From assembly GCA_036825195.1 (NCBI GenBank), contig DAISYQ010000002.1, positions 37,802 to 101,801 of the forward strand: 64,000 nucleotides of DNA, read 5' to 3'. Shown here piece by piece: positions 7,735-52,023 of the stretch. The first letter of the stretch is position 1; each line of letters starts with the position of its first letter. Under the pieces are notes generated by a model. That model saw only the letters and a list, made by a program, of their open reading frames with translations, had not been told where the DNA came from and ran no database searches. The stretch is from Syntrophales bacterium. GTDB lineage: Bacteria; Desulfobacterota; Syntrophia; Syntrophales; UBA2210. Made by a program: the position numbers and the translations under genes.

Positions 7735-7961
7735 GGTGTTTCTTTATGCGGCCTTTTGTACCGGTATATCTATGAACTGCCTGGTGTCGGCAGTTGCAAT
7801 ATCCGTAAAAATAGTTGATAAAAATAACAAAATACATGATATCACTAAGAGCGAAAACTCGCAAGGATTACTCGGAATTCCTCAAGCCGTGTTGCTAAAA
7901 AAAGATTTTTTGTGATAGTAGAATGAGCGGGATCGTGTGGATGGTTAGAAAGGAGTGGCGG

Positions 7962-10574
7962 GTGAATAATCTTACACCGGCGATGAGGCAGTACCTTGAA
8001 ATAAAAGAGCTGCACAGCGACTGTATCATATTTTTCAGGATGGGTGATTTCTACGAGATGTTCTTCGAGGATGCCGTAGTTGCCTCCAAAGTCCTCGAGA
8101 TTACTCTGACATCCAGAAATAAGGGCAAGGAAGATGCCATTCCGCTCTGTGGTGTGCCCTGGCACGCGGCATCCGGCTATATATCAAAGCTCATAGAGAA
8201 TGGATATAAGGTTGCCGTCTGTGAACAGATGGAGGATCCGAAAGATGCAAAGGGAGTAGTAAAGAGAGAGGTCGTGCGCATCGTAACGCCGGGACTGGTT
8301 GTCGATTCCGAAAATCTCTCGGCGAAGGAGAATAACTTTCTGGCGGGTATTTCGGTATTGAAGGATTCCTTCGGGCTTGCTCTCGTGGACATTTCGACCG
8401 GCGAATTTCGGGTTACGCAGACCGACGATCTAGAGGCGTTCCTCGATGAGATGGCAGGGCTTGATCTCAGAGAAGTAATCGTATCCGAAGCATTGAAAGA
8501 GAGCGGTCTTCTGGAGGCTTTTGTACGGCGGTCAGGCGACTGCAGTATCAGCTTCCTCCCATCCGATTATTTCTTTCCGGACGGGGCCTCGGACCTGATC
8601 GACGAGTTTTTTCATGAGAAGGGAGATGTTGATTTTAAAAGGCATCCGGCGATGACCGGCGCAGCGGGGGCGGTCTTGCGGTATGTGAAGGAAACCCAGA
8701 AAGACAGACTGAATCATATCAATGACGTAGTATGGTACGACATCCATACTTATCTGATTATGGATGACACGGCAAAGAGAAATCTTGAACTATTTGCCAC
8801 CATCCAGGGAGGAAAAAAGCGGGGATCTCTATTCCATGTCCTCGACGAGACAACTACCGCCATGGGGGGGAGGAAGCTACGCCGATGGCTCAATTATCCC
8901 CTTGTGGATCCGGAAAAAATCAGGATGAGACTCGCCGCCGTTTCCGAGATTAAAGACGATCATCTGCTGAGAGAAAATCTTCGAACGTCTCTCGCCGGTA
9001 TCTACGATCTTGAACGGCTCGGCAGCCGGGTTTCCATGGGTGTTGCGAACGGGAAAGACCTGCTTGCCCTTGGGAGATCTCTCAGACTGATACCAGCCAT
9101 AAAGGCCGCCATCTCGCAACTGGAATCCGCTCTCATATCCGTCATCCATGCCGAACTCGACGATATGCAGGATATGGCGGATCTGATAGATGATGCGATA
9201 GTGGACGATCCACCGGTAACCATTCGCGACGGGTATGTAATCAAGAAGGGATATGACGACGAGCTGGACAAGATCATATCACTGTGCACGGACGGTAAGA
9301 AATGGATCGCCGCCATGGAGGACAGGGAGCGGAAGAGAACGGGCATTAACAGTCTCAAAGTGGGTTTCAACTCTGTGTTCGGGTATTACATAGAGGTGAC
9401 CAGGGCGAACAGCGATATCGTCCCCGATGACTACATCAGGAAGCAGACGCTGGTCAATGCGGAACGGTATATCAATCAGGAACTGAAGGAATATGAATCT
9501 CTCGTTCTCGGGGCGGAGGAACGCAGGAAGAAGAGGGAATACGACCTGTTCGTGGAGATCAGAGATACGATTGCACGGGAGATAACGAGGATACAGCGGA
9601 CGGCCTCGCGTCTTGCCGATCTTGATGCCATAACCTCTTTGTCAGAAGTGGCGGAGAGGTACAACTACTGCTGCCCGCGCGTAACCGATGACGATCTGAT
9701 ACACATACAAGGGGGGAGGCATCCCGTCGTAGAGCGAATGAATCCGGATGGCGGATTTGTGCCTAATGACACACTTCTGGACCGCAACGGCAACCGTTTT
9801 CTCATTATCACGGGACCCAACATGGCGGGCAAATCAACCTATATACGTCAGACGGCGGTACTGGTTCTCATGGCGCAAATGGGGAGCTTTGTCCCGGCCG
9901 ATAAGGCGGAAATCGGTGTTGCAGACCGGATCTTTACGAGGGTCGGAGCCGGTGACAGTCTGTCAGGGGGACAGAGTACCTTTATGGTAGAGATGACGGA
10001 GGTCGCCGGTATTCTGAAGAACGCCTCTCCACGAAGTCTGATTCTTTTGGATGAAGTGGGAAGAGGCACGAGCACATTTGACGGTCTCAGCATAGCCTGG
10101 GCAGTAGCGGAGTATATACATGATCCGGAAAAACTCGGAGCCCGAACACTCTTTGCGACGCACTACCACGAGCTGACTGATCTTGCGAGAACCATGGACG
10201 GGGTCAAGAATCTGAGCATCGCGGTCAAGGAATGGGGCGACAGGGTTATCTTCCTGCGCACCATTATTGAAGGAGGGACTAACCGGAGTTACGGTATAGA
10301 GGTTGCCCGTCTCGCCGGAGTCCATGACGATGTCGTATCGAGGGCCAGAGAGGTGTTGAAAAATCTGGAACATGGTGAACTGGATGAGATCGGTATGCCG
10401 AAGATCGCCCGGGGGAAGTCCGCACGGAAGGGTGGCACTATGGGACAGTTGAATCTCTTTGCCGAAAAAGAGGATCTCCTGATTGCCGAATTGAATGCAT
10501 TTGACGTGTCGAACATGACACCCATGGAAGCGCTTTTAAAAATCAGTGAGTGGCAGAAGATGGTAAAGGATTGA
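7962..10574 (+). CDS. mutS: DNA mismatch repair protein MutS
   Basis: [38 protein letters not shown]; GTG start 7962 after AGGAG. Confidence 0.97.
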
Positions 10575-10616: not shown

Positions 10617-12929
10617 TTACTTGATACACACCCTGCGCACCTGGCTGAAATCCGTATGACCCGCAATGACCTTTTGTATTCCATCCTGCAGCAGTGTTGA
10701 CATGCCCTGGGAAATCGCCATATCCCGTATCATCTCGACATTTTCATGCTTCTGTATGAGCCGCTTGATTTCGTCCGTCGCAACAAGGAGTTCGTGCACC
10801 CCCATCCTTCCCTTATAGCCTGTGTTGCTGCATGTGGCGCAGCCTTTGGCGCGCCACAGTTTGAAATCACCGCTGTATGGTATATTCAATTCGGCAAACA
10901 GCTCTTCCCCGTAGTTTGCCACCAGTTCATCGTATTCATTTCTTGTGGGATGGTACTCCTCCTTGCATTTCTTGCATAGTGTTCGTACCAGTCTCTGTGC
11001 CAGTATCCCCAGAAGAGAATCGGCGAAATTGAGCGGATCGATTCCCATGTCGAGTAATCGTACGATCGTTTCGGGGGCACTGTTTGTATGAAGCGTACTG
11101 AAGACCAGATGTCCGGTGAGCGATGCTTCTACGCCGGTCTTGGCGGTTTCGTAATCCCTCATCTCTCCCACCATGATGACATCAGGATCGGCCCTGAGAA
11201 AGGCACGCATGGCATGGGCAAAGTCGAAGCCGATCTTTGGATTGATCTGAACTTGTCTGAGACCTAACTGGGTGATCTCTACGGGATCTTCCGCTGTCCA
11301 GATCTTGGTTTCAGGCTTGTTTATGTGATGGAGCGCGGAATGGAGGGTCGTTGTTTTTCCGGACCCTGTAGGGCCGACGGCGAGGATCATGCCATAGGGT
11401 TTTGCAAGCAGTTCGATCAGATTTTTGTAGGTGCGGGGTGACAGGGCCATATCCTCAAGACGCATTATTTCTCCGCTGGCCAGGATACGCATGACTACAT
11501 CTTCAACTCCCCCCTGTGTGGGGACGGTAGCCACACGCAGTTCCACTTCACTTCCCCGTGAACGTCTGAATTTAATCTTCCCGTCCTGCGGTATTCTCCG
11601 CTCTGTGATGTCAAGGTTCGACATAATCTTGATTCTTGAAACCAGGGCCGCTCTGTAGTTGAAGGGAACAGTCTGATATGTCGCCAGATCTCCGTCTACC
11701 CTGTACCGTACCTCAACATTCTTTTTTCCGATATTTGGTTCAATATGAATATCAGAGGCGTTGCGAATGTAAGCATCGTTGATTATCCGGTTGACCAGTT
11801 GCATGATGACACTGTCGGATTCGGTTATTTCGGTTTCTTCCTCTTCGAATGCATCATCGGTGTCGAGTTTTTCGATAATATCGGCGATCGAATCGGTGGT
11901 GTCGCCTGTCTGGTAGAAGTGATTAATGAATTTCAGTATATCGTCATACAGGGCGACATCGTATTCCACCGCCCGTGTCCTCAATAGATTCTCGATCATA
12001 TCCTGTTTCAGGACGTTATTTGGATCATCTATGATGACTCTGACCTTGCCGTCTCGTTTCTCCAGAGGTACCCACATCTCTCGACGGAGGTATTCTTCCT
12101 TCAGGTTTTTCAAAAGATCGAAAGGTATCGGATGCTTGCTGTTGAAACGAACGAAATTACAGTTATAGAATTCCTCGAGCGATTTACCCATATCGTCTTT
12201 CGAGATCTTGAATTTCCTCATCAGGTAGTCTTCGACCATCTCCCGGTTCTTTTTTGCAGCCCTCCCTGCTTGTTCAAGATCTTCTTCTGTGATCAAGCCA
12301 TGGGTCAGCAGGTAATTGAACTTGGATGTTCTCTTCCGGCTGATCCTTTCCTGATTGTAAAAAGCGGTTCCAAGGACATTGGCCATTTCCTTGAGGAAAT
12401 CTTGATCCTCTCCGGTAAATCTTTTTCCATCCTTTCTGTTCAGTATCTGTACAACGCCCATCAGTACGTCATCATGAAGAATCGGTACCGCTAAGACATG
12501 TACGGTTCTGAAACCCGATTTTTTGTCCCAACTGGAATCAAAATGAAGCTCGGGAGATATATCGTGTAGTTCCTTGCTGTCATAGGCGTTGGCTATATTC
12601 GCAATTTCTCTGTTATTAGCTACGTATCCCGCTATGCTTTTGTTGTCGATAGGCAGCCTGATTTCCTTCAATTCCGAACCTGCCAGGAACATCGCGTATA
12701 TTTCATTTTTTGTCCTGTCTGCCACATAGATTGTCATAGAATGGGCATTGAAGAGGCTGAGGATGTCATCCCTCAAATTGACAAGAATATGTCTCAGATT
12801 GAGGGCGGCATGGATACGATTGGTTATATCCTGCAATGCTTTACTGAGATTGAGTTTCTCTTCAAGCTCTGTTATCTGGGCCGTTGCCGTTTTGTTGCCC
12901 TGATTTACCTTTGATTGAAAGATGCTCAT
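10617..12929 (-). CDS. GspE/PilB-family assembly ATPase with N-terminal GAF domain
   Basis: GAF (FDSSWDKKSGFRT..LAVPI..GVVQILNRK..F..D); Walker A GPTGSGKTT, Walker B MVGEMRD, CxxC/CxxC Zn motif. Confidence 0.92.
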   Translation of the reverse strand: MSIFQSKVNQGNKTATAQITELEEKLNLSKALQDITNRIHAALNLRHILVNLRDDILSLFNAHSMTIYVADRTKNEIYAMFLAGSELKEIRLPIDNKSIAGYVANNREIANIANAYDSKELHDISPELHFDSSWDKKSGFRTVHVLAVPILHDDVLMGVVQILNRKDGKRFTGEDQDFLKEMANVLGTAFYNQERISRKRTSKFNYLLTHGLITEEDLEQAGRAAKKNREMVEDYLMRKFKISKDDMGKSLEEFYNCNFVRFNSKHPIPFDLLKNLKEEYLRREMWVPLEKRDGKVRVIIDDPNNVLKQDMIENLLRTRAVEYDVALYDDILKFINHFYQTGDTTDSIADIIEKLDTDDAFEEEETEITESDSVIMQLVNRIINDAYIRNASDIHIEPNIGKKNVEVRYRVDGDLATYQTVPFNYRAALVSRIKIMSNLDITERRIPQDGKIKFRRSRGSEVELRVATVPTQGGVEDVVMRILASGEIMRLEDMALSPRTYKNLIELLAKPYGMILAVGPTGSGKTTTLHSALHHINKPETKIWTAEDPVEITQLGLRQVQINPKIGFDFAHAMRAFLRADPDVIMVGEMRDYETAKTGVEASLTGHLVFSTLHTNSAPETIVRLLDMGIDPLNFADSLLGILAQRLVRTLCKKCKEEYHPTRNEYDELVANYGEELFAELNIPYSGDFKLWRAKGCATCSNTGYKGRMGVHELLVATDEIKRLIQKHENVEMIRDMAISQGMSTLLQDGIQKVIAGHTDFSQVRRVCIK

Positions 12930-13387
12930 ATGTTCTGCTTTTTGTTTCTGTGATCGTCAAAATTGCATTGAATAGCTTATGCATCACCATTAAAATATTC
13001 TTTGACAGTCAAAGAATTATCCCAATTTTGCAGTAAAGAGTGTTAAAGATAAAACATTTTTTAAAGAATTTCAATACGCAACCATCCGTCCACGATCTAT
13101 TTTATGCTTGACAAATCCTTCCAGTACAACTACCAGCAGATATATACTGAAATAGAGGGCACATAAAATCATATGTGGCTCTTGCCGATCGGAGCATTAC
13201 CTCTTCTTCGCGGTGAGGATCTCCGCATGGAATCGTTATGGCGTTGCAGATTTCTGGTGGAGGCAATAATGACCCTGTTTCAGCTATTTGTTGTATTGCA
13301 TGAACATATCTTTTCATGTAGGCTTATTATGACTGATGACGTGTTGGATATCGTATGCGAGCAAATATTCCCTGAGAGGCTGTAGAG

Positions 13388-16021
13388 ATGAAGTTAACAG
13401 ACTATGCTCAAAAATTATTATCGGGAGACAGAGGGCTGTATAAATGGATGAACATTATTTTTGCTCTTTTCTTCCTGATCCCTGTGGGCGGATTTATCTT
13501 TTTCGGTTTCAAATATGACATTTTAGCGGATAAGTATGTTCCTCTCTTTTTTATCATTTTCCTTCTTTTTTCCCTGCTGGGCTTCACGATACTCCGCAGG
13601 ATATTTGACAGGATAGCGTCGATATCCAAAGATGTCTCGGAGAGAGTTGCCGCGGAATTCTTTCTTGATCAACCGAAGAAGGGTGCTAATGAAATCAACA
13701 ATATCGTTGAAACCTTCAGCACTCTGGAGAATCAATTTGGAGCGACATTCGGGCAGCTCCAGCAAAAGGTCTCGGAGATATCGGTAATAAAAGAGCTTTC
13801 AGATCTCTGTTATGTGACCTTTGACCCCGAAGAAATCCTGTACGTCACCTTGGAGCGGGCCCTTAAACTGGCAAATGCGGATATCGGCTCCGTCTTGATC
13901 CTGGAGCGTCCTCATCGAAAGACCTTTGTCGTGAAGGCCACCATAGGTCTTGGGGAACGCGTCAAACTGGGTGACAGGATAGATTTTGCTGACAGTGTTG
14001 CAAAGTATGCGGTTATCAACAAATCGCCCCTTATCGTTGAGGATATTGAGTCAGACAGCCGTTTCGGCAGGCAAAACCGTCTGCAGTACGGGACAAAATC
14101 CTTTGTGTGTATGCCGTTTAAGACTATCAGGGATGTCGTCGGAGTGCTTACGATTTCCAGAAAAGACAATCCAGCTCCTTTCACCAGTGAAGACGTGGAA
14201 ATCTTGGGACCTCTTCTGGGTAACGCATCATTCACCTATGAAAATCTTCGTCTCCTGCACGAGAAAAAAGAGAGTGCGGCCCACCTGGCATCCATGGAGA
14301 AGGTCGTCCAGGTTATTAATTCCAGCCTTAAGGGTGGGGAATTGTTACGCGTCATCCTGGATGAGATACAGTCGGTGTCTTCCTTTGACCTTGCGATTAT
14401 CCTGCTGAAGGATGACACCAGGCCTAATAATATTCGAGTCCTTGATTTTATATCCGCCAGTCCCGTATCTCTGTCAAAGGGTGCCTATTACCCATATAAA
14501 GGATCAACGTTTGAAAAGGTCTTGAGGCAGGGTGTTACGCTCATTGTGGAGGACACCTCGTCACTCGTGCATGAGAGCGAGAAGGAATTCTTTGCCGGGC
14601 GCAAAACCGGTGCGCTCTTTCCTTTGAAGATGGATGCGGGCGTCGCCGGTGTTCTGGTATTGTGTACAGATGGTGGACCCGATTCTTTTTATATCCAGCA
14701 GGAACTGATAGAGAGGATGGCGGATGCCCTCTCTCTTGCCATAGAGAGAAACAGGCTCAGTAATTATGTCATCAAACGTGAACAGGAACTGGACACTTTG
14801 AAACAGATCGGAAGCGCCCTCGCATCGTCCACATTTGATATTAGTAAGGTTCTCGGGTACACCATGGACATGATCAGTGCTGTCATGAGTGTGGAAGCCG
14901 GATCTCTGCTCCTCATGCGTGATAACGGGCTTGAATTCACTGTCTCGCTGAATATTGATATAGAAAACCTGAAAGATTTCAGGATAAAAATAGGCCAGGG
15001 GGTCGCCGGTTATGTGGCGGCCCGGGGTGATGCGGTGATAGTAAATGATGTGCGCAAATCCTCACTCTTTTATCCCGATGTGGATAAGGTTACCGGTTTC
15101 CATACGAAGGCCGTTTTGTGTGTTCCCATGATATCGCAGGGTAAGGTTGTGGGGGTTATCGAGGTGCTCAACAAGATGGACGGTGATTTCGATGCCAGCG
15201 ACAAACAATTGCTGCAATCGATTGCATCGTCGGTCAGTGTAGCCATAGAAAATGCCAATCTCTACAATGAGACCCTGTCCATGGCAGAGAGCGAACGGGA
15301 GATACGGAATATCTTCCAGAAATTTGTTCCAAAAGAGGTGGTGGACAGGATTATCCACGGTGCCGAAACGGACCAGCTCGTTGTCGAGGAATTCAGGATG
15401 CTCACGCTTATCAATATAGATATCAGAGGATTCTCCCTTCTTGCCCAGAAGCTCGGGCCGCAGAAGACGGTCCTTATGCTCAACCGGTTCTTCTCCGTTA
15501 TGGGAGATATTGTGTTTAAACACCACGGTATTGTCGATAAATATCTCGGTGACGGTTTTCTGGCGGTCTTCGGTGCACCGGTTTCAAGTATGCAGGATGC
15601 CGATAACGCTGTTGCGGCGGCGCTTGAGATGAAGGAGTCCATCTCTGAAGTGAACGACTACTGGCTGAAAGAGACGGGCGATTCGGTGACCGTCGGCATC
15701 AGTGTCCACACCGGAGAGGTTGTTGTGGGAAATATCGGTTTTGATAAAAAAATGGACTATACCGTTATCGGTGATTCGGTCAACACGGTATTCAAACTGC
15801 AGGAACTCACGAAGGCGTATCCCAACAGCGTTCTCATCAGTGACAGAACCCTGCATGCGGTCAGGGCCCATCTGAATGTGGGGGAAGTGGATGTCAGTGA
15901 TCCCGCAATAGGAGCCATCAAGGTTTATGAGCTGACGGGTGTTAATGCAAGTGGCCGTATCGTACCCGAGAAGGAGATCATACCAAAAGCGGGGGGCAAG
16001 AGAAAGGAACAGGTCAAATAA
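13388..16021 (+). CDS. Membrane-bound class III adenylate/guanylate cyclase with HAMP-like linker and three GAF domains
   Basis: Two N-terminal TM segments; GAF repeats; DIRGF, DKYLGDG, DYTVIGDSVN catalytic motifs. Confidence 0.9.
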   Translation: MKLTDYAQKLLSGDRGLYKWMNIIFALFFLIPVGGFIFFGFKYDILADKYVPLFFIIFLLFSLLGFTILRRIFDRIASISKDVSERVAAEFFLDQPKKGANEINNIVETFSTLENQFGATFGQLQQKVSEISVIKELSDLCYVTFDPEEILYVTLERALKLANADIGSVLILERPHRKTFVVKATIGLGERVKLGDRIDFADSVAKYAVINKSPLIVEDIESDSRFGRQNRLQYGTKSFVCMPFKTIRDVVGVLTISRKDNPAPFTSEDVEILGPLLGNASFTYENLRLLHEKKESAAHLASMEKVVQVINSSLKGGELLRVILDEIQSVSSFDLAIILLKDDTRPNNIRVLDFISASPVSLSKGAYYPYKGSTFEKVLRQGVTLIVEDTSSLVHESEKEFFAGRKTGALFPLKMDAGVAGVLVLCTDGGPDSFYIQQELIERMADALSLAIERNRLSNYVIKREQELDTLKQIGSALASSTFDISKVLGYTMDMISAVMSVEAGSLLLMRDNGLEFTVSLNIDIENLKDFRIKIGQGVAGYVAARGDAVIVNDVRKSSLFYPDVDKVTGFHTKAVLCVPMISQGKVVGVIEVLNKMDGDFDASDKQLLQSIASSVSVAIENANLYNETLSMAESEREIRNIFQKFVPKEVVDRIIHGAETDQLVVEEFRMLTLINIDIRGFSLLAQKLGPQKTVLMLNRFFSVMGDIVFKHHGIVDKYLGDGFLAVFGAPVSSMQDADNAVAAALEMKESISEVNDYWLKETGDSVTVGISVHTGEVVVGNIGFDKKMDYTVIGDSVNTVFKLQELTKAYPNSVLISDRTLHAVRAHLNVGEVDVSDPAIGAIKVYELTGVNASGRIVPEKEIIPKAGGKRKEQVK

Positions 16022-31676: not shown

Positions 31677-33965
31677 TTATACCTGTTCGAGATAAAACCC
31701 CTTTTCTTCGAAAAGCTTCAGGCAGGCATCCACAACTTCCGGATCGTATAAAGTGTCTCTGCCTTGGCGTATCTCTTCTAGTGCTTTGGCTATACCCAGC
31801 GATGGGCGGTATGGTCTGTTGGTTGCCATCGCTTCTACTACATCGGCAACCGCAATAACCCTTGACTCTACAAGAATATCATCGCGAAGAAGCTTGGCCG
31901 GATATCCCGAGCCATCAAGCTTTTCGTGGTGCTGGCGTACAATCTGGGCAACCGGGTACATGAACTCGATATTTTTTAAGATATTATACCCTGCCTCAGG
32001 ATGGGTCTTTATCATGTTGAATTCGATAGCGGTCAGTTGACCGGGTTTACTGAGGATTTCTGCAGGAACATTTATCTTTCCGATGTCATGTATCATTGCT
32101 GCCATTCGAATGCCGCTGATTTTGTCTTCATCAAGATTCATCTCTTCGGCAATGGCAACGGCTATGTCCATTACCCTTTTCTGATGACCGGATGTGTATG
32201 GATCCTTCGATTCTACAATAACAGCCATTGCATTGACCGTGTTTTGCAAGGCCGATTTCAGCATCTCCACATTCTTTTCAATATCGGTAATATCTTTTAT
32301 GGTGCCTATTGCCCCGGCCATCTTACCTGCTGAATCGAGGTTTGGAGAAGCACTTATATTGAAGAGACGCTCACTGCCATCTCTGGTGAGAAGAATTCCC
32401 GTAAAGCTCTTTACAGCTTCCTTATCGGTCTTTATCCGTTCGAAATACCGTATAAAACGCCTTACATCTTTTTTGCCAACGAAGTCAATGAAATACCTTC
32501 CAATAACCTCTTCTTTTTTATAACCGAGTATTTTTTCCCATGCGGGATTAATGTAGTTAAATGCCCAGTCGGCATCTAGGGTATAGATAATATCAGGCGC
32601 ATTTTCCCCTAGTGCCCTGAACTGTTCCTCGCTCTGTCTGATTTTCTGGTATGCTTTGGCGTTATTTATACTGATACCGATCTGGGGTGCTATGCCCATG
32701 AGGAGGTTTATATCGCTCTGGCTGAAGGGCTTTTTTGTTTGCAGATTATCCACAGCCAGTATCCCTTCCGATCTTCCTTCGTATATTATGGGCACACAGA
32801 AAAACGATTTTACGCCCAGCATTTTCATGTATTCGAGTGTTCTTGATGAAACATCCTCTCTGATTCTGTCAACATTATCTATCAGAAATGGTCGTTGTTC
32901 TTTGAATGCCACTACGAATGGTCCGAGTGACCGGGGGTTGTCCAGATGAAACTTTGTTTGCCGGACAAGATCTTCCAGTTCGTGGCTGTATCCATACCCT
33001 GCGGCATATACGAGGTGGAGTCTCTCTTCGTCGGCAAGCATAATCGTTCCCCGGTCGAAATCGAGACGTTTCCGGAGAATATCCATAATGTAAGAAAGGA
33101 GTTGATCGGTATTCAGTATACTCGATGTACCCTGGCCAATCTCTTGGATAAGCAGGGCGTTGTTGTAGCGGGCGTTGGTCTGTTCCAGCAGGTCACCGGC
33201 AATTTCACTGTCGCTTTTAAGCTTTGAGTGAAGCTCCTTCTTCTCCAACCGTTCCGAGTAGGCAAAAAGACTTATTGTGAGCAGAGAACATAAAAGCGCC
33301 AGAATTATCCAGTACGTGGTCGGTAAGAAAAAAAAGAGACCAAGACACAATATGAGGCATAAGGCGGCTGTGTAGTTACTGATACGTGTCCATATGAATG
33401 AAGGGGGTTGTTCCCAGGTAATGATATATGTGCAGGCTTTATCACCTTCGTGCATGCAGGCAGGATGTTCAATCCTGGCAAACTGGTTCGTAAACAACCT
33501 GGCTACCGCCTCAAGTATTCCTGTCCGATTTTCGCACTGGTAGGGTTTTTCCTCAACCCCTTCTTTGGGGGTTACCGTTATCTCGAATTTAGTCTTACCG
33601 AGACGCTTTGTCGTAAGTTCGCATGAGCGACTAAAAAGGGGATATAATTTCTTCTGCAAGGTATAGACGGTTGCAGGAGTCATAAAACCGAGAATATATT
33701 GACGCAAGGGCTGACCGGCTTCGGAGAAAATGGAATAGTGCCCTACCTCTCGAGCGATTTTTGAATTACCTGTCTTATGGACGACGATTTCGTAAAAACG
33801 ATCAATTTGATCCTGCGTAAGCCAGTGTCCTGCATCCTCCAATTGGTAGGTAGTAATTCCTGAATATTCTAGGATAGAATCTATGTCAATTTCAGGATAC
33901 TTTTTTTGAATAAATTCGGTATATATTTTTAAATTTGATGTATTGTAAAGAGGAGTATCATTCAT
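31677..33965 (-). CDS. HD-GYP c-di-GMP phosphodiesterase with N-terminal V4R-like sensor, two TM helices, GAF and PAS
   Basis: EHPACMHEGDKAC (V4R-like), GAF, PAS (APDIIYTLD), HDIGK...HHEKLDGSGYP. Confidence 0.88.
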   Translation of the reverse strand: MNDTPLYNTSNLKIYTEFIQKKYPEIDIDSILEYSGITTYQLEDAGHWLTQDQIDRFYEIVVHKTGNSKIAREVGHYSIFSEAGQPLRQYILGFMTPATVYTLQKKLYPLFSRSCELTTKRLGKTKFEITVTPKEGVEEKPYQCENRTGILEAVARLFTNQFARIEHPACMHEGDKACTYIITWEQPPSFIWTRISNYTAALCLILCLGLFFFLPTTYWIILALLCSLLTISLFAYSERLEKKELHSKLKSDSEIAGDLLEQTNARYNNALLIQEIGQGTSSILNTDQLLSYIMDILRKRLDFDRGTIMLADEERLHLVYAAGYGYSHELEDLVRQTKFHLDNPRSLGPFVVAFKEQRPFLIDNVDRIREDVSSRTLEYMKMLGVKSFFCVPIIYEGRSEGILAVDNLQTKKPFSQSDINLLMGIAPQIGISINNAKAYQKIRQSEEQFRALGENAPDIIYTLDADWAFNYINPAWEKILGYKKEEVIGRYFIDFVGKKDVRRFIRYFERIKTDKEAVKSFTGILLTRDGSERLFNISASPNLDSAGKMAGAIGTIKDITDIEKNVEMLKSALQNTVNAMAVIVESKDPYTSGHQKRVMDIAVAIAEEMNLDEDKISGIRMAAMIHDIGKINVPAEILSKPGQLTAIEFNMIKTHPEAGYNILKNIEFMYPVAQIVRQHHEKLDGSGYPAKLLRDDILVESRVIAVADVVEAMATNRPYRPSLGIAKALEEIRQGRDTLYDPEVVDACLKLFEEKGFYLEQV

Positions 33966-47400: not shown

Positions 47401-47467
47401 TGATGCGGACTATCCCAATGTTCCGGGGTGTTCCGGTGCGGAACAGAGAGTTACTTATCGTTATTAG
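44456..47467 (+). CDS. Large lipoprotein: Big_1-type Ig domains + Asp-box beta-propeller interrupted by ~55 aa beta repeats
   Basis: Lipobox FVSC; SLSASPTSVPADG Ig motif; Asp boxes YKSSDSGETW, YRSLDGGMNW, FKSIDGGRTW, WVSTNSGTDW. Confidence 0.8.
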   Translation: MKVRYLQNSFLVVLVVCALIFFVSCGSSDDDKSSSSVRTISLSASPTSVPADGFSTSTITAALLDKEGNAVSESRAISVTFSTDFGTFTENGSSTYTTYTESGGNTATATLAASEEEGTARITVKADDIKKALYVSFTQFDNEEVVAEEFSLSANYLNISGLSRVGLEDVITAWVGDIYGNPIQANTSISFKTYGTGGMISPNVVPTGESGTAASTLTTTSGPAPMQGFVSVTAETEGGPTTRVTSIAVTPYPDNHIVYAGTNGGGVYKSSDSGETWENVSRSSDNPKLGQNWMDPYIKGHSAICVDPDNHNTIYVGTGYLGAGNLYRSLDGGMNWNSNNLEEWYGVFSTNAAVLTVLCDDGGSDYVWTGTEGLGILYAANGENFQPSCGTATTPAPGGANVGNGTVSDPVLSYSSQTETWTATCFLTDASATVPVLDEDAVGNGAMSPVETSDTTVSENWTVMCNGFIGDPSYGTGAGTVEGIVIQHLTAETWTIRCIDDNPDDDPLTDDALFTVVGSVSGAQPNATEGELYESDVLKFIITPGFVEDDVITFTTSIFWRVTGTVSGLQEGTARINRLYHSDNNEIAFTIYSGSVPFEAGDSFTFTTIGPATGWTVYGSTSGIQSNPAWNNTVYTSDNNEVSFIIYEGSTPFADGDTFTFSVTASDIGHGWTVWDIVKVPGTHGSAAILYAATNVGVFKSIDGGRTWNETSNFTGDYITALSLHTSSTGGANDVIYAGTLNAGVWVSTNSGTDWTQYAGGMTSGVSASIKDLSVDSMNAKLYALCYTGPSDSATGHVYSHALNGGGSMTTGTWNSANTGLSGGALYAAALDSPSDPEGIFVGGEGIALYRAESGLDAGNPIWIEKINGIDNTIMARMPVLFTGNCAMTIDQTLYNNTVYYTVYIEDLNGNPPIVGSTFTVTYNNDTEIIDVTYPHCYQHEGTFRDPGNPYSNYPYRLSVTLDPTEDKNEVEFVFTPADTLDDADYPNVPGCSGAEQRVTYRY

Positions 47468-47469
47468 AT

Positions 47470-49044
47470 ATGGACTATTTCAGGATATTAAATCTTGTCA
47501 AAGAACCTTTTTCCAACTCTCCCGAACCGGAGTTCTTTTACCAGTCCGAGCAGCATGTGGAGTGTCTCCAGAAGCTGGAACTCGCCGTGCGCTTGCGGCG
47601 CGGGCTGAATGTCGTCATCGGAGATGTGGGGACGGGTAAGACCACGCTGTGCAGGCAGATGATCCGCAGGCTTGCCGCCGATAAGAACGTAGAAACATAC
47701 CTTATGATAGACCCGTATTTCAGCAAACCGATGGAGTTTCTCCATGCGGTGAGTGAACTGCTGGGTATTGATGACAGTAAGCCCGAAATGACGGAATGGC
47801 AGGTCAAGGAGGAGATCAAAAACCACCTCTATGCGAAAGGGGTAGGAGAACAAAAGATCCTTGTTCTGATCATAGACGAGGGGCAGAAGATTCCGGATTT
47901 CTGTCTTGAAATGTTGAGAGAATTTCTCAACTATGAGACGAATGAATACAAGCTGCTGCAGATCGTTATATTTGCCCAGAAGGAGTTTTATCAGGTGCTT
48001 GAAGGGCATCCGGGTTTCGCCGATCGTATCAACCTCTCCTACGATTTTTCACCCATGAACTTTGCCGATACGCGGGCGATGATACGGTACCGCCTGGATA
48101 TCGCCAGTGGGGGGAAAAAGGAGGTTTACTTTACCTTTCCCGCTCTGTGGGCGATCTACCGAATCACGAAAGGATATCCGCGGAAGATCGTCAGGCTGTG
48201 CCACCAGATTATTCTCGCCCTTATTGTTCAAAACCGTACAAAAGCTAATTGGTCACTGGCCCGTTTCTGTGCGCACGGAGAAGAAAAATCCGGTGGAACA
48301 AGGCGAGTCGTATTGGCCGCAACCTTCGCTTGTTTGATCGCTTTAATCTTCTTTGGATTCAAGTATGATCATCTATTTGTTTCAGTGAATCACTCTCCTT
48401 CGGTTGAGGCGGTGTCGATGTCCGCGCCCGTTGTAAAAGACCTGGCGGAAAACGCGAAACAGGTGATTCCGGTTCAGTCTGCGGCGATTGCCGCTCTTCC
48501 CGAGAAGCCTCCGGCTGAAGTTTCATACATTACCGAAAAAGCGCCGGTGATTGAGGAAAAATATCCCCCGTTGCTGGGGCGGCTGGGAATACGGAAAAAT
48601 GAAACGGTCTCGGGCATTGTGAGAAGGGTGTACGGTGTGTGTGATCCGGAGCGGCTTGCAGTAATAACCGATGCCAACCCGCACATCAAGGATTTGAACA
48701 GGGTTGTGCCGGGGGAGGTGATTAATCTTCCGGCGATTCCCTCCGGGTTTTACCCCGCGCCGGAATGGATCTGCTGGGTTCAGGTGGCGCAGAAAGGAAG
48801 TCTCGAGGATATTTATGCATTGTGCACAACATATCCCGGCACGTTGCCCCCGATTCAGATATTTCCCTGCTGGAACGGTCGTGAGGGGTTGACTTTTACC
48901 GCTATCATGGAAAAGGGCTTCACCGATGAAGAGTCGGCGCAGAGAGCCATTGACGAACTGCCCCGGCTGATCTCTTCAGGCGCGAAGGTCATTACAAAGT
49001 GGGACGAAGATACGGTTTTCTTTTCCACCGTGGCGTCTCGCTGA
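47470..49044 (+). CDS. ExeA/MshM-type AAA ATPase with TM, LysM and SPOR-like C-terminus
   Basis: EPFSNSPEP, GDVGTGKTT, LIIDEGQ, GYPRKI; LysM-like NPHIKDLNRVVPGEVINLP. Confidence 0.85.
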   Translation: MDYFRILNLVKEPFSNSPEPEFFYQSEQHVECLQKLELAVRLRRGLNVVIGDVGTGKTTLCRQMIRRLAADKNVETYLMIDPYFSKPMEFLHAVSELLGIDDSKPEMTEWQVKEEIKNHLYAKGVGEQKILVLIIDEGQKIPDFCLEMLREFLNYETNEYKLLQIVIFAQKEFYQVLEGHPGFADRINLSYDFSPMNFADTRAMIRYRLDIASGGKKEVYFTFPALWAIYRITKGYPRKIVRLCHQIILALIVQNRTKANWSLARFCAHGEEKSGGTRRVVLAATFACLIALIFFGFKYDHLFVSVNHSPSVEAVSMSAPVVKDLAENAKQVIPVQSAAIAALPEKPPAEVSYITEKAPVIEEKYPPLLGRLGIRKNETVSGIVRRVYGVCDPERLAVITDANPHIKDLNRVVPGEVINLPAIPSGFYPAPEWICWVQVAQKGSLEDIYALCTTYPGTLPPIQIFPCWNGREGLTFTAIMEKGFTDEESAQRAIDELPRLISSGAKVITKWDEDTVFFSTVASR

Positions 49045-49076
49045 TATCTGTTTTAACAAAAGGAAAGGGTCGTACG

Positions 49077-50786
49077 TTGGAGGAGACACGAAAAAAATTA
49101 GGCGAAATGCTCATGGATGCCGGCCTGTTGACGGAAGAACAGTTAAATCAGGCGCTGGTCGGCCAGAGAAAGACCGGTCTGAAACTCGGGCAGTATCTTG
49201 TCCAGGAGGGCTGGTTCAGGGAAGAGCAGATTATAAGCCAGATCAGCCAACAGCTGAACATTGAACGATATATCCCCGGAAATTATCCGATAGATCAGTC
49301 TCTGGCCCACCTCATTCCCTTCGATATGGCTCAAAAGTATCAGATAGCTCCCATCAGAAAAAGGTTGCATCTCCTCACCCTGGCCATGGCCGATCCAATG
49401 GATATCGGCGCCATCGATTACACCGAGATGCTCACAAACATGGAGGTTATGCCTGTAATCTGCTCTGAGAAGGAGATAAATCAACTGATCACCCTGACCT
49501 ACGGAACACAGGCGGGGGGATTGCAGCAGGTACTGAAGGGCATAGAGGAGGTGGAAACAGAAGAAGAAACGACGGTTCAGGCGGAAACGGATGTCCGCGT
49601 CAGTTCTCTTCAGGGTATGGCCGAGGAGGCCCCCGTTATCCGTATCGTAAATTCCATAATCGCGCAGGCTGTTCGTGAAGGAGCGAGCGATGTACATATC
49701 AGTCCCGAAGCGGACAAGGCCCAATTGCGATTTCGCATTGACGGAAAACTTCGTGAAGTTCCATCGCCTCCGAAATCACTCTTCCTTCCCATCGTATCGA
49801 GGGTAAAGATCCTGTCCAGTATGGATATCGCCGTATCGAGAATTCCTCAGGACGGCCGATTTACAGTCAAGATGGACAATAAGGAGATCAATATCAGGGC
49901 ATCCGTGCTTCCTACCATCTATGGGGAGAACGTGGTAATGCGTCTCCTTGATATGAGTGCCGGGGTTTATACCCTCAAGCAGCTCGGAATGTCTCATGAC
50001 GACCGGGAAAAAATAGAGGCTGCCATCATCAAGCCGTACGGAATGATACTCAGTACGGGACCGACGGGAAGCGGAAAAAGCACGAGTCTGTACGCGATCC
50101 TGCGGGAACTCAATAAACCGGATATCAATATCATTACCCTGGAAGACCCCGTAGAGTACCGGGTGGAACATATACGCCAGGTCCAGTTGAACCGCAAGGC
50201 AGGTATGACCTTTGCCAGCGGTCTCAGATCGATCCTCCGTCAGGACCCCGATGTCATGCTGGTGGGTGAGATCAGAGACGGCGAAACGGCAGGTCTCGCG
50301 GTACAGGCAGCCCTGACAGGCCACAGGGTTTTAAGCACCCTTCACACAAATGATGCGGCGGGTGCCATAACACGGCTTACCGAGATGGGAGTGGAACAGT
50401 TTCTTATATCTTCCGTCCTTCTGGTTTCGTTCGCGCAGCGGCTTATGAGAACGGTGTGCCCCTACTGTAAAGAGCCGTACACGCCTCCCTTGGATGCCCT
50501 AAGGGCATGGGAACTTGACACGGTGGAGGGTGCCAATTTTCAGCGGGGTAGAGGGTGCCCCCAGTGCATGAACACCGGTTATAAAGGGCGGACCGGTATC
50601 TTTGAAGTCCTGCAGATAGACGAATCAATCCAGGAGATGGTTGTCAGGGGAATGACGGCGCAGGAGATTACGCACAAGGCGAAAAGGGCCGGAAGACTCC
50701 GCACCCTCAAGGAAGACGCCAAGGATAAAGTAATCCAGGGCATAACAACACTTGAAGAAGCCGCATCGACCGTGATGCTGGCATAA
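49077..50786 (+). CDS. pilB: MshE/PilB pilus extension ATPase with N-terminal MshEN domain
   Basis: KLGEMLMDAGLLTEEQLNQALVGQ..KLGQYLVQEG; GPTGSGKST; LVGEIRD; CPYC/CPQC; TTG start 49077. Confidence 0.9.
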   Translation: MEETRKKLGEMLMDAGLLTEEQLNQALVGQRKTGLKLGQYLVQEGWFREEQIISQISQQLNIERYIPGNYPIDQSLAHLIPFDMAQKYQIAPIRKRLHLLTLAMADPMDIGAIDYTEMLTNMEVMPVICSEKEINQLITLTYGTQAGGLQQVLKGIEEVETEEETTVQAETDVRVSSLQGMAEEAPVIRIVNSIIAQAVREGASDVHISPEADKAQLRFRIDGKLREVPSPPKSLFLPIVSRVKILSSMDIAVSRIPQDGRFTVKMDNKEINIRASVLPTIYGENVVMRLLDMSAGVYTLKQLGMSHDDREKIEAAIIKPYGMILSTGPTGSGKSTSLYAILRELNKPDINIITLEDPVEYRVEHIRQVQLNRKAGMTFASGLRSILRQDPDVMLVGEIRDGETAGLAVQAALTGHRVLSTLHTNDAAGAITRLTEMGVEQFLISSVLLVSFAQRLMRTVCPYCKEPYTPPLDALRAWELDTVEGANFQRGRGCPQCMNTGYKGRTGIFEVLQIDESIQEMVVRGMTAQEITHKAKRAGRLRTLKEDAKDKVIQGITTLEEAASTVMLA

Positions 50787-50805: not shown

Positions 50806-52023
50806 ATGCCAACCTTTTCATACAGGGCCATCAATCAGAGCGGCGGCTCCGTTTCAGGTGTCCTCGAGGCAGATTCGGTTGAGGCGGCACAGGTCCGGTT
50901 GAGCGAGCAGGGATTTATCCCGTCCTCAGTGACGGAGGAACGTACTGCATCCGGCGGGTTAATGGGTAAGATACAGGCAGCACTGACGCCCGTCAAAACG
51001 GAAGAGTTGATACTCTTTACGAAACAACTCAAGACCATGCTCGTTGCCGGATTGCCGATACTGAAGGTGCTTGAAGTACTCGAACATCAGACCGAAAATC
51101 CAAAGCTGAAAAGCGCTGTAGCCTCCATGGCCGTTGATATAAAGGAGGGTACTTCCCTGTATGAGGTATTCGGGAAACATAAAGACATATTCTCTCCCCT
51201 CTATATCAGTATGATCAGGGCGGGTGAAACGAGTGGTACACTCCCGTCAGTTCTTGATCGCCTGGTCTATATACTGGATCACGAACATGGTGTGAGGTCG
51301 GATATCAAGGCGGCCATGCAATATCCCATCCTTGTCGTGATCGCCCTTGGCATAGCATTTTTTGTGCTCCTCACTTTCGTTATCCCCAAATTCGTCAATA
51401 TTTTTAACAAGTCAGGCCTAGAACTTCCGCTGCCCACGGCAATCTGCTTGTATATGTACCGGTTTCTGCATGATTACTGGCTCATTCTGTTGGGTGGTGT
51501 TCTTGTTGCTTTTATGGTGCTGCGGTACTGGTTCAAGACCCAACCAGGACGATATGTAAAAGACGCCTTTCTTTTACGAGTACCCCTCATTGGACCTCTC
51601 TTTGTCAAGGCTGCCATGTCCCGTTTCGCGAGCATCTTTTCTATCCTGCAGGCAAGTGGAGTTACCGTCCTGAGTGCCCTCGATATCCTCTCCGGTACCA
51701 TCGGCAACGCCGCCATCAGCAGGGAATTTTCCCGGTTGAAAGAAAAGATAGAAGGAGGGAGAGGGATATCCGGGCCCCTGAGATCGGCGAAATACTTTAC
51801 TCCCATGGTAGTGGACATGATCGCCGTGGGTGAAGAATCAGGTCAGCTTGAAGAGATGCTTCAGGTTGTTTCCATGCATTATGACGACGAAGTGAAATAT
51901 GCCGTCAAGAGGTTATCCGATGCTGTCGGTCCGCTGTTGATCGTTTCTCTCGCGGCAGTAGTCGGCTTTTTCGCCATGGCCATATTCCTCCCCATGTGGG
52001 ATCTCACCAAAATGGTCAAATAG
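50806..52023 (+). CDS. pilC: PilC/MshG/GspF platform protein
   Basis: [39 protein letters not shown]. Confidence 0.92.

What the first reader, a model, noticed from the sequence alone, without database searches (positions are those of the whole stretch)
10617..16021. Orphan GAF-PilB motor divergently paired with a GAF-rich nucleotide cyclase
Seen: a second PilB/GspE ATPase 27 kb from the pilus locus with no pilC or pilin nearby, sharing a 458 bp divergent intergenic region with a class III cyclase. The PilB GAF (FDSSWDKKSGFRT...ILNRK...F..D) and the last cyclase GAF (VDKVTGFHT...LNKMDGDFDASD) carry the NKFDE-like pattern. Established: this pattern marks cAMP/cGMP-binding GAFs of PDEs and cyanobacterial CyaB1. 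Inference: cNMP made by the cyclase directly gates an alternative pilus extension motor.
Basis: partly seen in the sequence, partly recalled or inferred. Interest (0 to 1): 0.62.

Follow-up and report, generated by a model that had tools for sequence, protein, structure and literature searches.

The report
Orphan GAF pilus motor beside cyclase
Both genes are real and both carry sensor domains of the cAMP/cGMP-binding kind, but they are neighbours only in one small group of related bacteria, so the gene order is no evidence that this cyclase controls this pilus-type motor.

Summary
Window 10617-12929 (-) encodes an intact 770-aa PilB/GspE-class ATPase with an N-terminal GAF domain. Window 13388-16021 (+) encodes an 877-aa membrane-anchored class III cyclase with three GAFs. 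They are divergent across 458 bp, and the pilus locus lies 26.8 kb away.

The GAF on the ATPase and the last GAF on the cyclase both belong to the cAMP/cGMP-binding GAF subfamily. This rests on sequence, profile, predicted fold and pocket residues. The ATPase's MshEN c-di-GMP motif is lost in all 75 family members examined.

The pairing is not a conserved module:
- It occurs only in one shallow Syntrophales subclade.
- In 11 of about 17 linked genomes a GDSL hydrolase gene sits between the two genes.
- Two further genomes have 3-6 kb of inserted genes.
- At least one close relative has the pair broken.
- None of 37 resolved ATPase loci outside the parent clade has the cyclase, and only 1 of 66 more distant cyclase loci has the ATPase.
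- mutS, folE2 and other housekeeping neighbours are conserved at least as well.

Each gene belongs to its own widespread, unstudied Desulfobacterota family. The ATPase family never has pilus genes within 6 kb (0 of 80 loci).

Direct cNMP control of this orphan motor stays plausible and untested. A dedicated cyclase-motor pair is unlikely (about 0.1).

The parts
10617..12929 (-). Orphan GAF-MshEN-T2SSE ATPase gene (P0001, 770 aa), PilB/GspE class
   Evidence: T2SSE scores 403 bits. PilB equivalog scores 517.6 against a cut-off of 675.65 and GspE 488.2 against 630.25, so it belongs to neither equivalog.
12363..12848 (-). GAF domain (residues 28-189), cNMP-binding subfamily by sequence and predicted fold
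   Evidence: AF2 pLDDT is 89.9. Foldseek top hits are cNMP GAFs.
12165..12323 (-). Decayed MshEN c-di-GMP motif region (residues 203-255, KFNYLLTHGL...)
   Evidence: NF053729 scores 20.5 bits against a cut-off of 38. The relaxed 24-residue motif of PMC5013675 is absent here and in 75 of 75 family members. Gly11 of the motif is replaced by D or N in 75 of 75.
10632..11822 (-). ATPase core (T2SSE, residues 370-766) with Walker A/B, Asp box, His box and tetracysteine
   Evidence: Walker A is invariant in 75 of 75.
12930..13387 (.). 458-bp divergent intergenic region. Only 13046-13171, the ATPase-proximal part, is conserved with relatives that carry the GDSL gene.
13388..16021 (+). Membrane-anchored 3xGAF class III (IIIb-type) nucleotide cyclase gene (P0002, 877 aa)
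13442..13600 (+). Two-helix membrane hairpin with a 9-residue loop. It looks like an anchor, not an obvious periplasmic sensor.
   Evidence: Hydropathy; sequence.
14843..15253 (+). GAF3 (residues 486-622), cNMP-binding subfamily, immediately upstream of the catalytic domain
   Evidence: Lcd1 5W10 at 1.2e-21, CyaB2 at 3.8e-21, PDE2A at 8.5e-20.
15383..15886 (+). Cyclase catalytic domain. It has D678, D722, K718, T792 and N799. The transition-state Arg is Lys here (K803, codon 15794-15796).
7923..10574 (+). mutS, the convergent neighbour of the ATPase gene. It is the most widely conserved neighbour of the family in Syntrophales.
48999..50786 (+). Context: the pilus-locus extension ATPase (MshE/PilB-like), with both c-di-GMP motifs intact
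   Evidence: NF053729 scores 57.6 bits against a cut-off of 38. The relaxed motif is found at residues 33 and 62. It is 35% identical to P0001.
50806..52023 (+). Context: the PilC/GspF-like platform protein. It is the nearest candidate docking partner for the orphan ATPase (inference only).

Best explanation
These are two independently conserved signalling genes. They are neighbours by descent in one Syntrophales subclade and do not form a dedicated module.

(a) The ATPase.
- P0001 is an intact extension-type (PilB/GspE-class) hexameric ATPase.
- It belongs to a widespread, unstudied Desulfobacterota subfamily that is always encoded away from pilus or secretion genes.
- In this subfamily the c-di-GMP-binding half of MshEN has decayed.
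- A GAF domain of the cAMP/cGMP-binding subfamily sits at the N-terminus.
- Most likely the GAF binds a cyclic mononucleotide. cAMP is the better guess.
- Ligand binding would then allosterically switch the ATPase, or its docking, on a PilC/GspF platform encoded elsewhere. The window's own type IV pilus locus is the nearest candidate.

(b) The cyclase.
- P0002 is a membrane-anchored class IIIb adenylyl-cyclase-type enzyme.
- Its last GAF is also cNMP-type.
- It therefore probably has CyaB1/CyaB2-like product feedback.

Any cAMP that P0002 makes could reach the ATPase GAF, because the messenger diffuses. Nothing singles out this cyclase as the dedicated source.

Shown here: domains, motifs, GAF subfamily, synteny pattern and family breadth. 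Inferred: ligand identity, allosteric gating and the partner platform.
For: Genes and domains.

GAF subfamily:
- Single sequence against PDB: CyaB2 at 9.4e-24, then PDE6, PDE2, PDE10, PDE5 and Lcd1. The first non-cNMP GAF scores 1.7e-4.
- Family profile against PDB: CyaB2 at 1.2e-32, cNMP GAFs from 8e-21 to 4e-11, other GAFs at 4e-7 or weaker.
- AF2 model pLDDT is 89.9. Foldseek ranks 1-23 are the PmGH GAF plus cNMP GAFs.

Pocket, mapped onto the CyaB2 GAF-B contacts listed in PMC4411481:
- T293 aligns with T66 (T in 70/75).
- I308 aligns with F81 (59/75).
- D356 aligns with D135 (75/75).
- N359 aligns with S138 (S or T in 71/75).
- S98/G101/A104 are near-invariant (74, 75 and 75 of 75); I99 and A100 are 61 and 62 of 75. 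T142 is T in 74/75.
- N164 is N in 74/75 and F171 is F in 72/75.

c-di-GMP site:
- It is lost in P0001 and in 75/75 family members.
- It is intact in the pilus-locus ATPase.

Orphan status:
- None of 80 loci has PilC, secretin, PilM/N/O or pilin within 6 kb.
- Neighbours are housekeeping genes.

Family breadth:
- 804 clusters at 90% identity match the GAF plus N-terminal region. All 120 listed hits carry MshEN+T2SSE and 119 also a GAF family. They are named only 'GspE/PulE family protein' or similarly generic labels.
- 397 relatives were found among species-representative genomes.

Synteny:
- The pair occurs in one 13-row clade plus L011.
- A GDSL gene lies between the two genes in 11 genomes.
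- The genes are 3.2 kb apart in L150 and about 6.4 kb apart in L013/L097.
- No ATPase gene lies within 5 kb upstream of the cyclase in L091 or L093.
- Only 1 of 66 cyclase loci at 51-61% identity has the ATPase nearby.
- None of 37 resolved ATPase loci outside the parent clade has the cyclase.

Cyclase residues: D678, D722, K718, T792 and N799 are conserved in 78-79 of 79 orthologues. GAF3 is cNMP-type.
Against: - No binding data exist for any member of the family. GAF ligand prediction from sequence is unreliable, since some PDE GAFs of the same subfamily do not bind nucleotide.
- The best fold match is the PmGH GAF (4MCW). I do not know its ligand.
- The CyaB2 adenine contact R291 is Ser in the window protein. 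Across the family it is R in 33, S in 25 and L in 11.
- NKFDE is imperfect (K to R, E to Q).
- The cyclase's transition-state Arg is Lys in the window and 14 orthologues, which may lower activity.
- Whole-genome searches were shut. I could not list other platform proteins, other cyclases or cNMP receptors in this genome. I also could not test genome-level co-occurrence of the two families.
- Sampling is limited. The search for related loci returns only the best 80 loci, and many MAG contigs are short. 27 ATPase loci had too little upstream DNA to score.
Confidence: 0.62

Rival explanations
1. The neighbouring cyclase and the GAF-ATPase form a dedicated module. cNMP made by P0002 is the specific signal that gates this alternative pilus extension motor, and the shared divergent promoter region co-regulates them.
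For: - Both GAFs are cNMP-type.
- The cyclase has an adenylyl-cyclase residue set.
- The genes are directly divergent in the window and in five relatives: L081, L011, L020, L042/L092 and L094, with gaps of 362-487 bp.
- Some linkage, sometimes loosened to 3-6 kb, persists across a 19-row clade.
Against: - The pairing needs only one origin and decays within its own clade. A GDSL hydrolase gene lies between the genes in 11 of about 17 linked genomes. Flavodiiron-like and other genes are inserted in L150 and L097.
- L091 has fmt and rsmB in the 5 kb upstream of the cyclase, while that genome's ATPase gene sits on another contig.
- Both families are widespread but unlinked elsewhere: 0 of 37 and 1 of 66 loci.
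- folE2, HAD, aminotransferase and mutS synteny is equally or better conserved.
- Only the ATPase-proximal part of the intergenic region is conserved.
Confidence: 0.1
2. The ATPase GAF does not sense a cyclic mononucleotide. It binds another small molecule, or it serves only as a dimerisation or scaffold domain. The similarity to cNMP GAFs would then reflect shared ancestry, not shared ligand.
For: - The best fold match is the PmGH HD-GYP GAF, 4MCW.
- PtsP GAFs follow closely in fold rank, at ranks 24-25.
- The adenine-N1 contact position is variable across the family, R/S/L.
- NKFDE is imperfect.
- NKFDE residues do not contact the ligand (PMC11977230).
Against: - The sequence and profile gap between cNMP GAFs and other GAFs is four or more orders of magnitude in E-value.
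- The phosphate and ribose contact elements (SIAG, D-x-x-S/T-G-Y/F-x-T) are close to invariant over sequences only 54-86% identical overall. That indicates a pocket under selection.
Confidence: 0.3
3. The ATPase is not a pilus extension motor. It may power a type II secretion-like system encoded elsewhere. Or it may have a filament-independent role, as suggested by its constant position among housekeeping genes such as mutS.
For: - None of 80 loci has filament genes nearby.
- It scores below both the PilB and the GspE equivalog cut-offs.
- The pilus locus already has its own ATPase.
Against: - All motifs of extension-type ATPases are intact and invariant.
- The N1 (MshEN fold) and N2 domains that dock on the machinery are retained.
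- One clade places an ExeA/GspA-like accessory ATPase divergently next to it.
- Acinetobacter baylyi uses a second extension ATPase, TfpB, alongside PilB (PMC8213720; PMC11656802).
Confidence: 0.25

Closest known systems
MshE (Vibrio cholerae) and other c-di-GMP-binding PilB/GspE ATPases (PMC5013675; review PMC11656802)
   Same: Same ATPase class: N1 (MshEN fold), N2 and a C-terminal domain with a tetracysteine. A second messenger is sensed by an N-terminal module of the motor itself.
   Different: - The two 24-residue c-di-GMP motifs are absent. Gly11 is replaced by D or N in 75 of 75 family members, and motif II is unrecognisable.
- A cNMP-type GAF is added instead.
- The gene is not in a pilus operon.
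TfpB of Acinetobacter baylyi, a second extension ATPase acting with PilB on one pilus (PMC8213720)
   Same: A second, phylogenetically distinct extension-type ATPase in a genome whose pilus locus already has its own ATPase.
   Different: - NF053534 scores 424 bits against a cut-off of 850, so P0001 is not a TfpB orthologue.
- I did not check whether TfpB has a GAF domain.
- No functional data exist for the family described here.
CyaB1/CyaB2 of Anabaena, cAMP-activated GAF adenylyl cyclases (PDB 1YKD; PMC4411481)
   Same: - cNMP-type GAF domains lie N-terminal to a class III catalytic domain.
- CyaB2 is the best PDB match of the ATPase GAF and the second best of cyclase GAF3.
   Different: - P0002 has a membrane hairpin and three GAFs, of which only the last is clearly cNMP-type.
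- No PAS domain was detected.
- The catalytic domain is closest to Synechocystis Cya2 and Pseudomonas CyaB.
- Lys replaces the transition-state Arg in this clade.
Lcd1 of Leptospira interrogans, a GAF domain crystallised with cAMP (PDB 5W10)
   Same: It is the best PDB match of cyclase GAF3 (1.2e-21) and also matches the ATPase GAF. It shows that a bacterial GAF with an imperfect NKFDE (NR..F..DL) binds cAMP.
   Different: - The output domain differs.
- Identity is only about 22% with the ATPase GAF in the fold alignment.

Membership tests
PilB/GspE-class (extension-type) secretion ATPase, Pfam T2SSE PF00437 | T2SSE domain with Walker A, Asp box, Walker B and His box | tested here: met
   PF00437 scores 403 bits. 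Motifs are at residues 519, 547, 581 and 606. Walker A is invariant in 75 of 75.
PilB/GspE-class (extension-type) secretion ATPase | N-terminal GSPII/MshEN-fold domain and a C-terminal tetracysteine zinc site | tested here: met
   PF05157 scores 50.2 bits at residues 266-343. CKKC is at 652 and CATC at 697.
Type IVa pilus PilB (TIGR02538) / T2SS GspE (TIGR02533) / TfpB (NF053534) equivalogs | Score above the curated equivalog cut-off | tested here: not met
   Scores are 517.6 against 675.65, 488.2 against 630.25 and 424 against 850.
MshEN c-di-GMP receptor | [quoted passage not shown] | tested here: not met
   NF053729 scores 20.5 bits against a cut-off of 38. The relaxed regular expression finds no match in P0001 or in 75 of 75 family members. 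It finds both motifs in the pilus-locus ATPase.
cNMP-binding GAF subfamily (PDE2/5/6/10/11, CyaB1/2, Lcd1): ATPase GAF | NKFDE motif (NKXnFX3DE) | tested here: inconclusive
   P0001 reads N164, R165, F171, D175, Q176. In the family, N is 74/75, K or R 72/75, F 72/75, D 61 plus E 12, and Q 51 against E 13. Three residues are identical and two are changed.
cNMP-binding GAF subfamily: ATPase GAF | Closest relatives among solved structures are nucleotide-binding GAFs, and ligand-contact positions are retained | tested here: met
   Of the CyaB2 contacts, T293, D356 and N359 (as Ser) and the hydrophobic I308 (as Phe) are retained. R291 is not retained in the window protein.
cNMP-binding GAF subfamily: ATPase GAF | Binds cAMP or cGMP | not testable with these tools
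   This needs ITC, DRaCALA or thermal shift on purified protein.
cNMP-binding GAF subfamily: cyclase GAF3 | NKFDE motif and closest solved relatives | tested here: met
   The motif reads N595, K596, F601, D605, K606, which is four of five. In the family, N is 79/79, K 76, F 79, D 79, and the last position is E 36 against K 23. Best PDB matches are Lcd1, CyaB2 and PDE2A at about 1e-20.
Class III nucleotidyl cyclase (adenylyl-cyclase type, IIIb) | Two metal-binding Asp, the substrate pair Lys plus Thr (or Asp), and the transition-state Asn | tested here: met
   D678, D722, K718, T792 and N799 are conserved in 78-79 of 79 orthologues.
Class III nucleotidyl cyclase | Transition-state Arg four residues after the Asn | tested here: not met
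   It is K803 in the window and in 14 orthologues. It is Arg in 59 of 79.
Conserved gene pair or operon-like module (cyclase plus GAF-ATPase) | Adjacency maintained across divergent lineages, beyond background synteny | tested here: not met
   The pairing occurs in one subclade, is often interrupted, and is absent in 0 of 37 and 1 of 66 more distant loci. Housekeeping neighbours are conserved equally well.

The most novel reading that the evidence does not exclude
A cyclic mononucleotide (cAMP or cGMP) binds the GAF domain of this orphan PilB-class ATPase and directly switches a type IV filament or secretion motor. That would be an evolutionary swap of the motor's built-in second-messenger sensor, from c-di-GMP (MshEN motif, lost family-wide) to cNMP (GAF). 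The cell would then run two extension motors on different messengers. In this lineage the neighbouring feedback-activated cyclase would be one source of the signal.
Probability: 0.3. Interest if true: 0.7.

Novelty: new variant of a known kind. Interest (0 to 1): 0.4.

Why it matters
The 2024 review of PilB regulation that I read describes direct control of pilus extension ATPases by c-di-GMP and by protein cofactors. It covers cAMP only through Pil-Chp/CyaB and the transcription factor Vfr, and it never mentions GAF (PMC11656802).

This family is large: 804 protein clusters at 90% identity and 397 hits among species-representative genomes. A family of motor ATPases whose c-di-GMP site is gone and which carry a cNMP-type GAF would add a new input to type IV filament control, if binding is confirmed.

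It would also give syntrophic and sulfate-reducing Desulfobacterota a two-messenger choice between motors.

The specific claim of this finding, a cyclase-motor gene pair, does not add to that. The pairing is lineage-specific synteny.

Tried and rejected
Other platform genes, other cyclases and genome-level co-occurrence could not be examined.
- I looked for a remnant of the GDSL hydrolase gene in the window's intergenic region. There is only a 12-residue, E = 2.5 match at 13248-13283, too weak to call.
- The promoter and terminator scan of the intergenic region gave six sigma-70-like sites against 2.0 expected. Nothing in it points to shared regulation.
- Literature searches for 'GAF domain' with GspE/PilB and for GAF with T2SSE/MshEN found no paper describing this architecture.
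- I considered a recent domain duplication between the two cNMP-type GAFs and rejected it. They share only 31% identity over 106 residues.
- I looked for a conserved partner gene of the ATPase family in 80 loci. The only recurring neighbours are housekeeping genes, a GDSL hydrolase, an LMW-PTP plus ExeA-like pair in one clade, and generic two-component genes in another.
Full report
**1. The observation**

P0001, at 10617-12929 on the minus strand, is 770 aa.
- Pfam finds GAF at 28-189, MshEN at 266-343 and T2SSE at 370-766 with 403 bits.
- By direct reading it has Walker A GPTGSGKT at 519, EDPVE at 547 and Walker B DPDVIMVGEMRD at 581.
- The His box is at 606, and the zinc tetracysteine is CKKC at 652 and CATC at 697.
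- It scores highest against the PilB and GspE equivalogs but below both cut-offs: 517.6 against 675.65 and 488.2 against 630.25.
- It is therefore an extension-type ATPase of its own subfamily.

P0002, at 13388-16021 on the plus strand, is 877 aa.
- It has two hydrophobic helices at residues 19-71 joined by a 9-residue loop.
- It has three GAF stretches and a class III cyclase domain at 666-833.

The layout also matches the finding.
- The genes are divergent across 458 bp (12930-13387).
- The flanks hold rlmN, mutS, folE2, a HAD hydrolase and an aminotransferase.
- The type IV pilus locus starts at 39693, which is 26.8 kb away. It encodes PilM/N, PilO, a PilQ-type secretin, an ExeA-like ATPase, an MshE/PilB-like ATPase, a PilC/GspF-like platform and a sigma-54 activator.

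**2. Are the GAFs of the cyclic-nucleotide kind?**

For the ATPase GAF the answer is yes, as far as sequence and predicted fold can say.

- The GAF region was searched against all PDB chain sequences. It finds CyaB2 (1YKD) at 9.4e-24, then PDE6, PDE2A, PDE10A, PDE5 and the Leptospira Lcd1 GAF (5W10). The first GAF of another kind scores 1.7e-4.
- A profile of 40 family members sharpens this. CyaB2 scores 1.2e-32, every cNMP-type GAF scores between 8e-21 and 4e-11, and other GAFs score 4e-7 or weaker.
- An AlphaFold model built from that alignment is confident (pLDDT 89.9). Its first 23 Foldseek matches are the PmGH HD-GYP GAF (4MCW) and cNMP GAFs. PtsP GAFs follow closely behind, so fold alone separates the groups less sharply.

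I mapped the CyaB2 GAF-B contacts listed in PMC4411481 (R291, T293, I308, T309, D356, N359) through the HMMER alignment. The chain-to-residue offset of 57 is consistent at all six positions.

| CyaB2 contact | P0001 residue | Conservation in 75 family sequences |
|---|---|---|
| R291 | S64 | R 33, S 25, L 11 |
| T293 | T66 | T 70 |
| I308 | F81 | F 59 |
| T309 | L82 | L 40, K 31 |
| D356 | D135 | D 75 |
| N359 | S138 | S or T 71 |

Other conserved elements, in sequences that are 54-86% identical overall:
- S98, G101 and A104 are near-invariant (74, 75 and 75 of 75). I99 and A100 are 61 and 62 of 75.
- T142 is T in 74 of 75.
- N164 is N in 74 of 75 and F171 is F in 72 of 75.

The pocket is therefore under selection. 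The adenine-N1 contact varies between Arg and Ser, and the window's clade has Ser.

NKFDE reads N-R-F-D-Q in P0001. The literature says this motif marks cNMP-binding GAFs but does not touch the ligand (PMC11977230). Lcd1, crystallised with cAMP, itself reads N-R-F-D-L.

Cyclase GAF3 is even closer to the cNMP subfamily. Lcd1 scores 1.2e-21, CyaB2 3.8e-21 and PDE2A 8.5e-20. Its motif reads N-K-F-D-K and it carries D566-x-x-T569-G-F-x-T573. GAF1 and GAF2 match only weakly.

**3. The c-di-GMP site**

- In P0001 the segment that corresponds to the first MshEN motif reads KFNYLLTHGLITEEDLEQAGRAAK, and the second motif is unrecognisable.
- The NCBIfam motif model scores 20.5 bits against a cut-off of 38.
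- The relaxed motif published with the MshEN structure (PMC5013675) matches no member of the family, 0 of 75.
- The key Gly is Asp or Asn in all 75.
- The ATPase inside the pilus locus (48999-50786) has both motifs and scores 57.6 bits. It is 35% identical to P0001.

The window thus holds one c-di-GMP-type motor in the pilus locus and one GAF-type motor outside it.

**4. Is the pairing conserved?**

This is the crux, and the answer is no.

From the ATPase side, I fetched 80 loci around relatives of the ATPase.
- Twelve loci have the cyclase upstream.
- Forty have at least 3 kb of upstream DNA and no cyclase.
- Twenty-seven cannot be scored, and one (L013) has the cyclase just outside the flank.
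- On a maximum-likelihood tree of 75 ATPase sequences, the paired loci form one 13-row clade with SH-aLRT support of 100, plus L011 in the sister clade.
- Outside the 19-row parent clade, none of 37 scorable loci is paired.

From the cyclase side, I fetched 80 loci around relatives of the cyclase.
- Of 66 loci at 51-61% identity, only L150 has the ATPase gene nearby, 3.2 kb away.

Within the paired group the arrangement is unstable.
- In 11 genomes a GDSL-like hydrolase gene lies between the two genes, with gaps of 853-1226 bp.
- The direct divergent arrangement, with gaps of 362-487 bp, occurs only in the window, L081, L011, L020, L042/L092 and L094.
- In L013/L097, which lie on one contig, the genes are about 6.4 kb apart, separated by transglutaminase-like and flavodiiron-like genes.
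- In L091 (cyclase 75% identical) the 5 kb upstream holds fmt and rsmB. That genome's ATPase gene (L008, 82% identical) sits on another contig. This rests on MAG contigs.
- In L093 the upstream genes are a thiolase and a methyltransferase.

Housekeeping synteny is conserved at least as well.
- The folE2-HAD-aminotransferase genes stay with the cyclase.
- mutS stays with the ATPase across far more of Syntrophales.
- In the intergenic region, only the ATPase-proximal block 13046-13171 is conserved with relatives that carry the GDSL gene.

This is the pattern of synteny by descent. A single rearrangement event cannot be told from chance.

**5. What each gene is**

The ATPase belongs to a large, unnamed family.
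- 804 clusters at 90% identity match its GAF plus N-terminal region. All 120 listed hits carry MshEN+T2SSE and 119 also a GAF family. They are named only 'GspE/PulE family protein' or similarly generic labels.
- 397 relatives were found among species-representative genomes.
- None of the 80 loci has a PilC/GspF, secretin, PilM/N/O or pilin gene within 6 kb.
- Neighbours are mutS, argC, maf, ychF, aconitase, a trpB-like gene and similar.
- One Syntrophales clade has a divergent LMW-PTP-like gene plus an ExeA/GspA-like ATPase. That is the only recurrent hint of a link to secretin or pilus biology.

The cyclase also belongs to a conserved family, with 108 relatives.
- Its catalytic domain aligns best with Synechocystis Cya2 and the derived phytochrome chimera, and next with Pseudomonas CyaB and Spirulina CyaC.
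- The two metal-binding Asp, the adenine-type Lys718, Thr792 and Asn799 are conserved in 78-79 of 79 orthologues.
- The transition-state Arg is Lys in the window and 14 orthologues, and Arg in 59.
- I read it as an adenylyl-cyclase-type enzyme with a CyaB1-like feedback GAF. Its activity is unverified.

**6. Mechanism and odds**

- Most likely (0.62), these are two separately conserved signalling proteins. The ATPase is a ligand-gated extension-type motor that acts in trans on a platform encoded elsewhere. Its GAF probably senses cAMP or cGMP.
- The odds that the GAF binds a cNMP are about even, perhaps slightly better.
- The odds that the neighbouring cyclase is the dedicated source are about 0.1.
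- A second extension ATPase acting on one pilus has a precedent in Acinetobacter TfpB (PMC8213720; PMC11656802).
- Direct cNMP sensing by a PilB-class ATPase is not in the 2024 review of PilB regulation. That review covers cAMP only via Vfr transcription and never mentions GAF.

**7. Limits**

- Whole-genome tools were shut. I therefore could not test the ATPase's orphan status beyond this window, the genome's other cyclases, or genome-level co-occurrence of the two families.
- All relatives are MAG contigs, many of them short.
- Ligand identity cannot be settled in silico.
- Earlier notes of this scan had already flagged the same ATPase family, its decayed MshEN and the cyclase's Arg-to-Lys change. 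I re-tested those points here and did not rely on the notes.

Noticed in passing
L022, L027, L029, L030, L033, L034, L035, L044, L077 (upstream of the ATPase gene): In one Syntrophales clade the divergent neighbour of the GAF-ATPase is an LMW-phosphatase-like gene followed by an ExeA/GspA-like AAA ATPase. That ATPase is about 30% identical to window 47428-49044. This is the only recurrent secretion- or pilus-related neighbour of the family.
   Followed up: partly
L060/L061 (PHBH01), L056/L073 (CAZOLJ01), L072/L079 (CAYTUL01), L059/L063 (JAHECH01): Four Desulfobacterales assemblies carry two GAF-ATPase paralogues on different contigs. The copies fall in different clades of the tree, one usually next to argC/ychF and the other next to a trpB-like gene. 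The family was therefore duplicated in that order. These are MAGs, so mixed bins are not excluded.
   Followed up: partly
window 12738-12740 (residue S64 of P0001): The position equivalent to CyaB2 R291, which contacts adenine N1, is Arg in 33 of 75 family members, Ser in 25 (the window has Ser) and Leu in 11. This may reflect a split in ligand specificity within the family.
   Followed up: no
window 15794-15796 (K803 of P0002): The cyclase's transition-state Arg is Lys in the window and in 14 of 79 orthologues, and Arg in 59. All other catalytic residues are conserved.
   Followed up: partly
window 48999-50786: The pilus-locus extension ATPase has both 24-residue MshEN c-di-GMP motifs intact (KLGEMLMDAGLLTEEQLNQALVGQ and KLGQYLVQEGWFREEQIISQISQQ). 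It is a predicted c-di-GMP receptor in the same window as the GAF-type ATPase.
   Followed up: partly
L001-L010, L088, L089 (between ATPase and cyclase); window 13248-13283: A gene for a GDSL/SGNH-like hydrolase of about 210 aa sits between the ATPase and cyclase genes in 11 relatives and is missing in the window. A 12-residue match to its C-terminus just upstream of the cyclase start could be a deletion scar, but it is not significant.
   Followed up: partly
L150 1338-2609; L097 3337-4545: A flavodiiron-like gene (ODP beta-lactamase fold plus flavodoxin) is inserted between the ATPase and cyclase genes in two more distant relatives. The interval is a variable spot.
   Followed up: no
window 31677-33965 (-) and 33962-36157 (-): A V4R/GAF/PAS/HD-GYP protein is followed by a 731-aa protein with no Pfam match. 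This is another second-messenger gene pair between the finding and the pilus locus.
   Followed up: no
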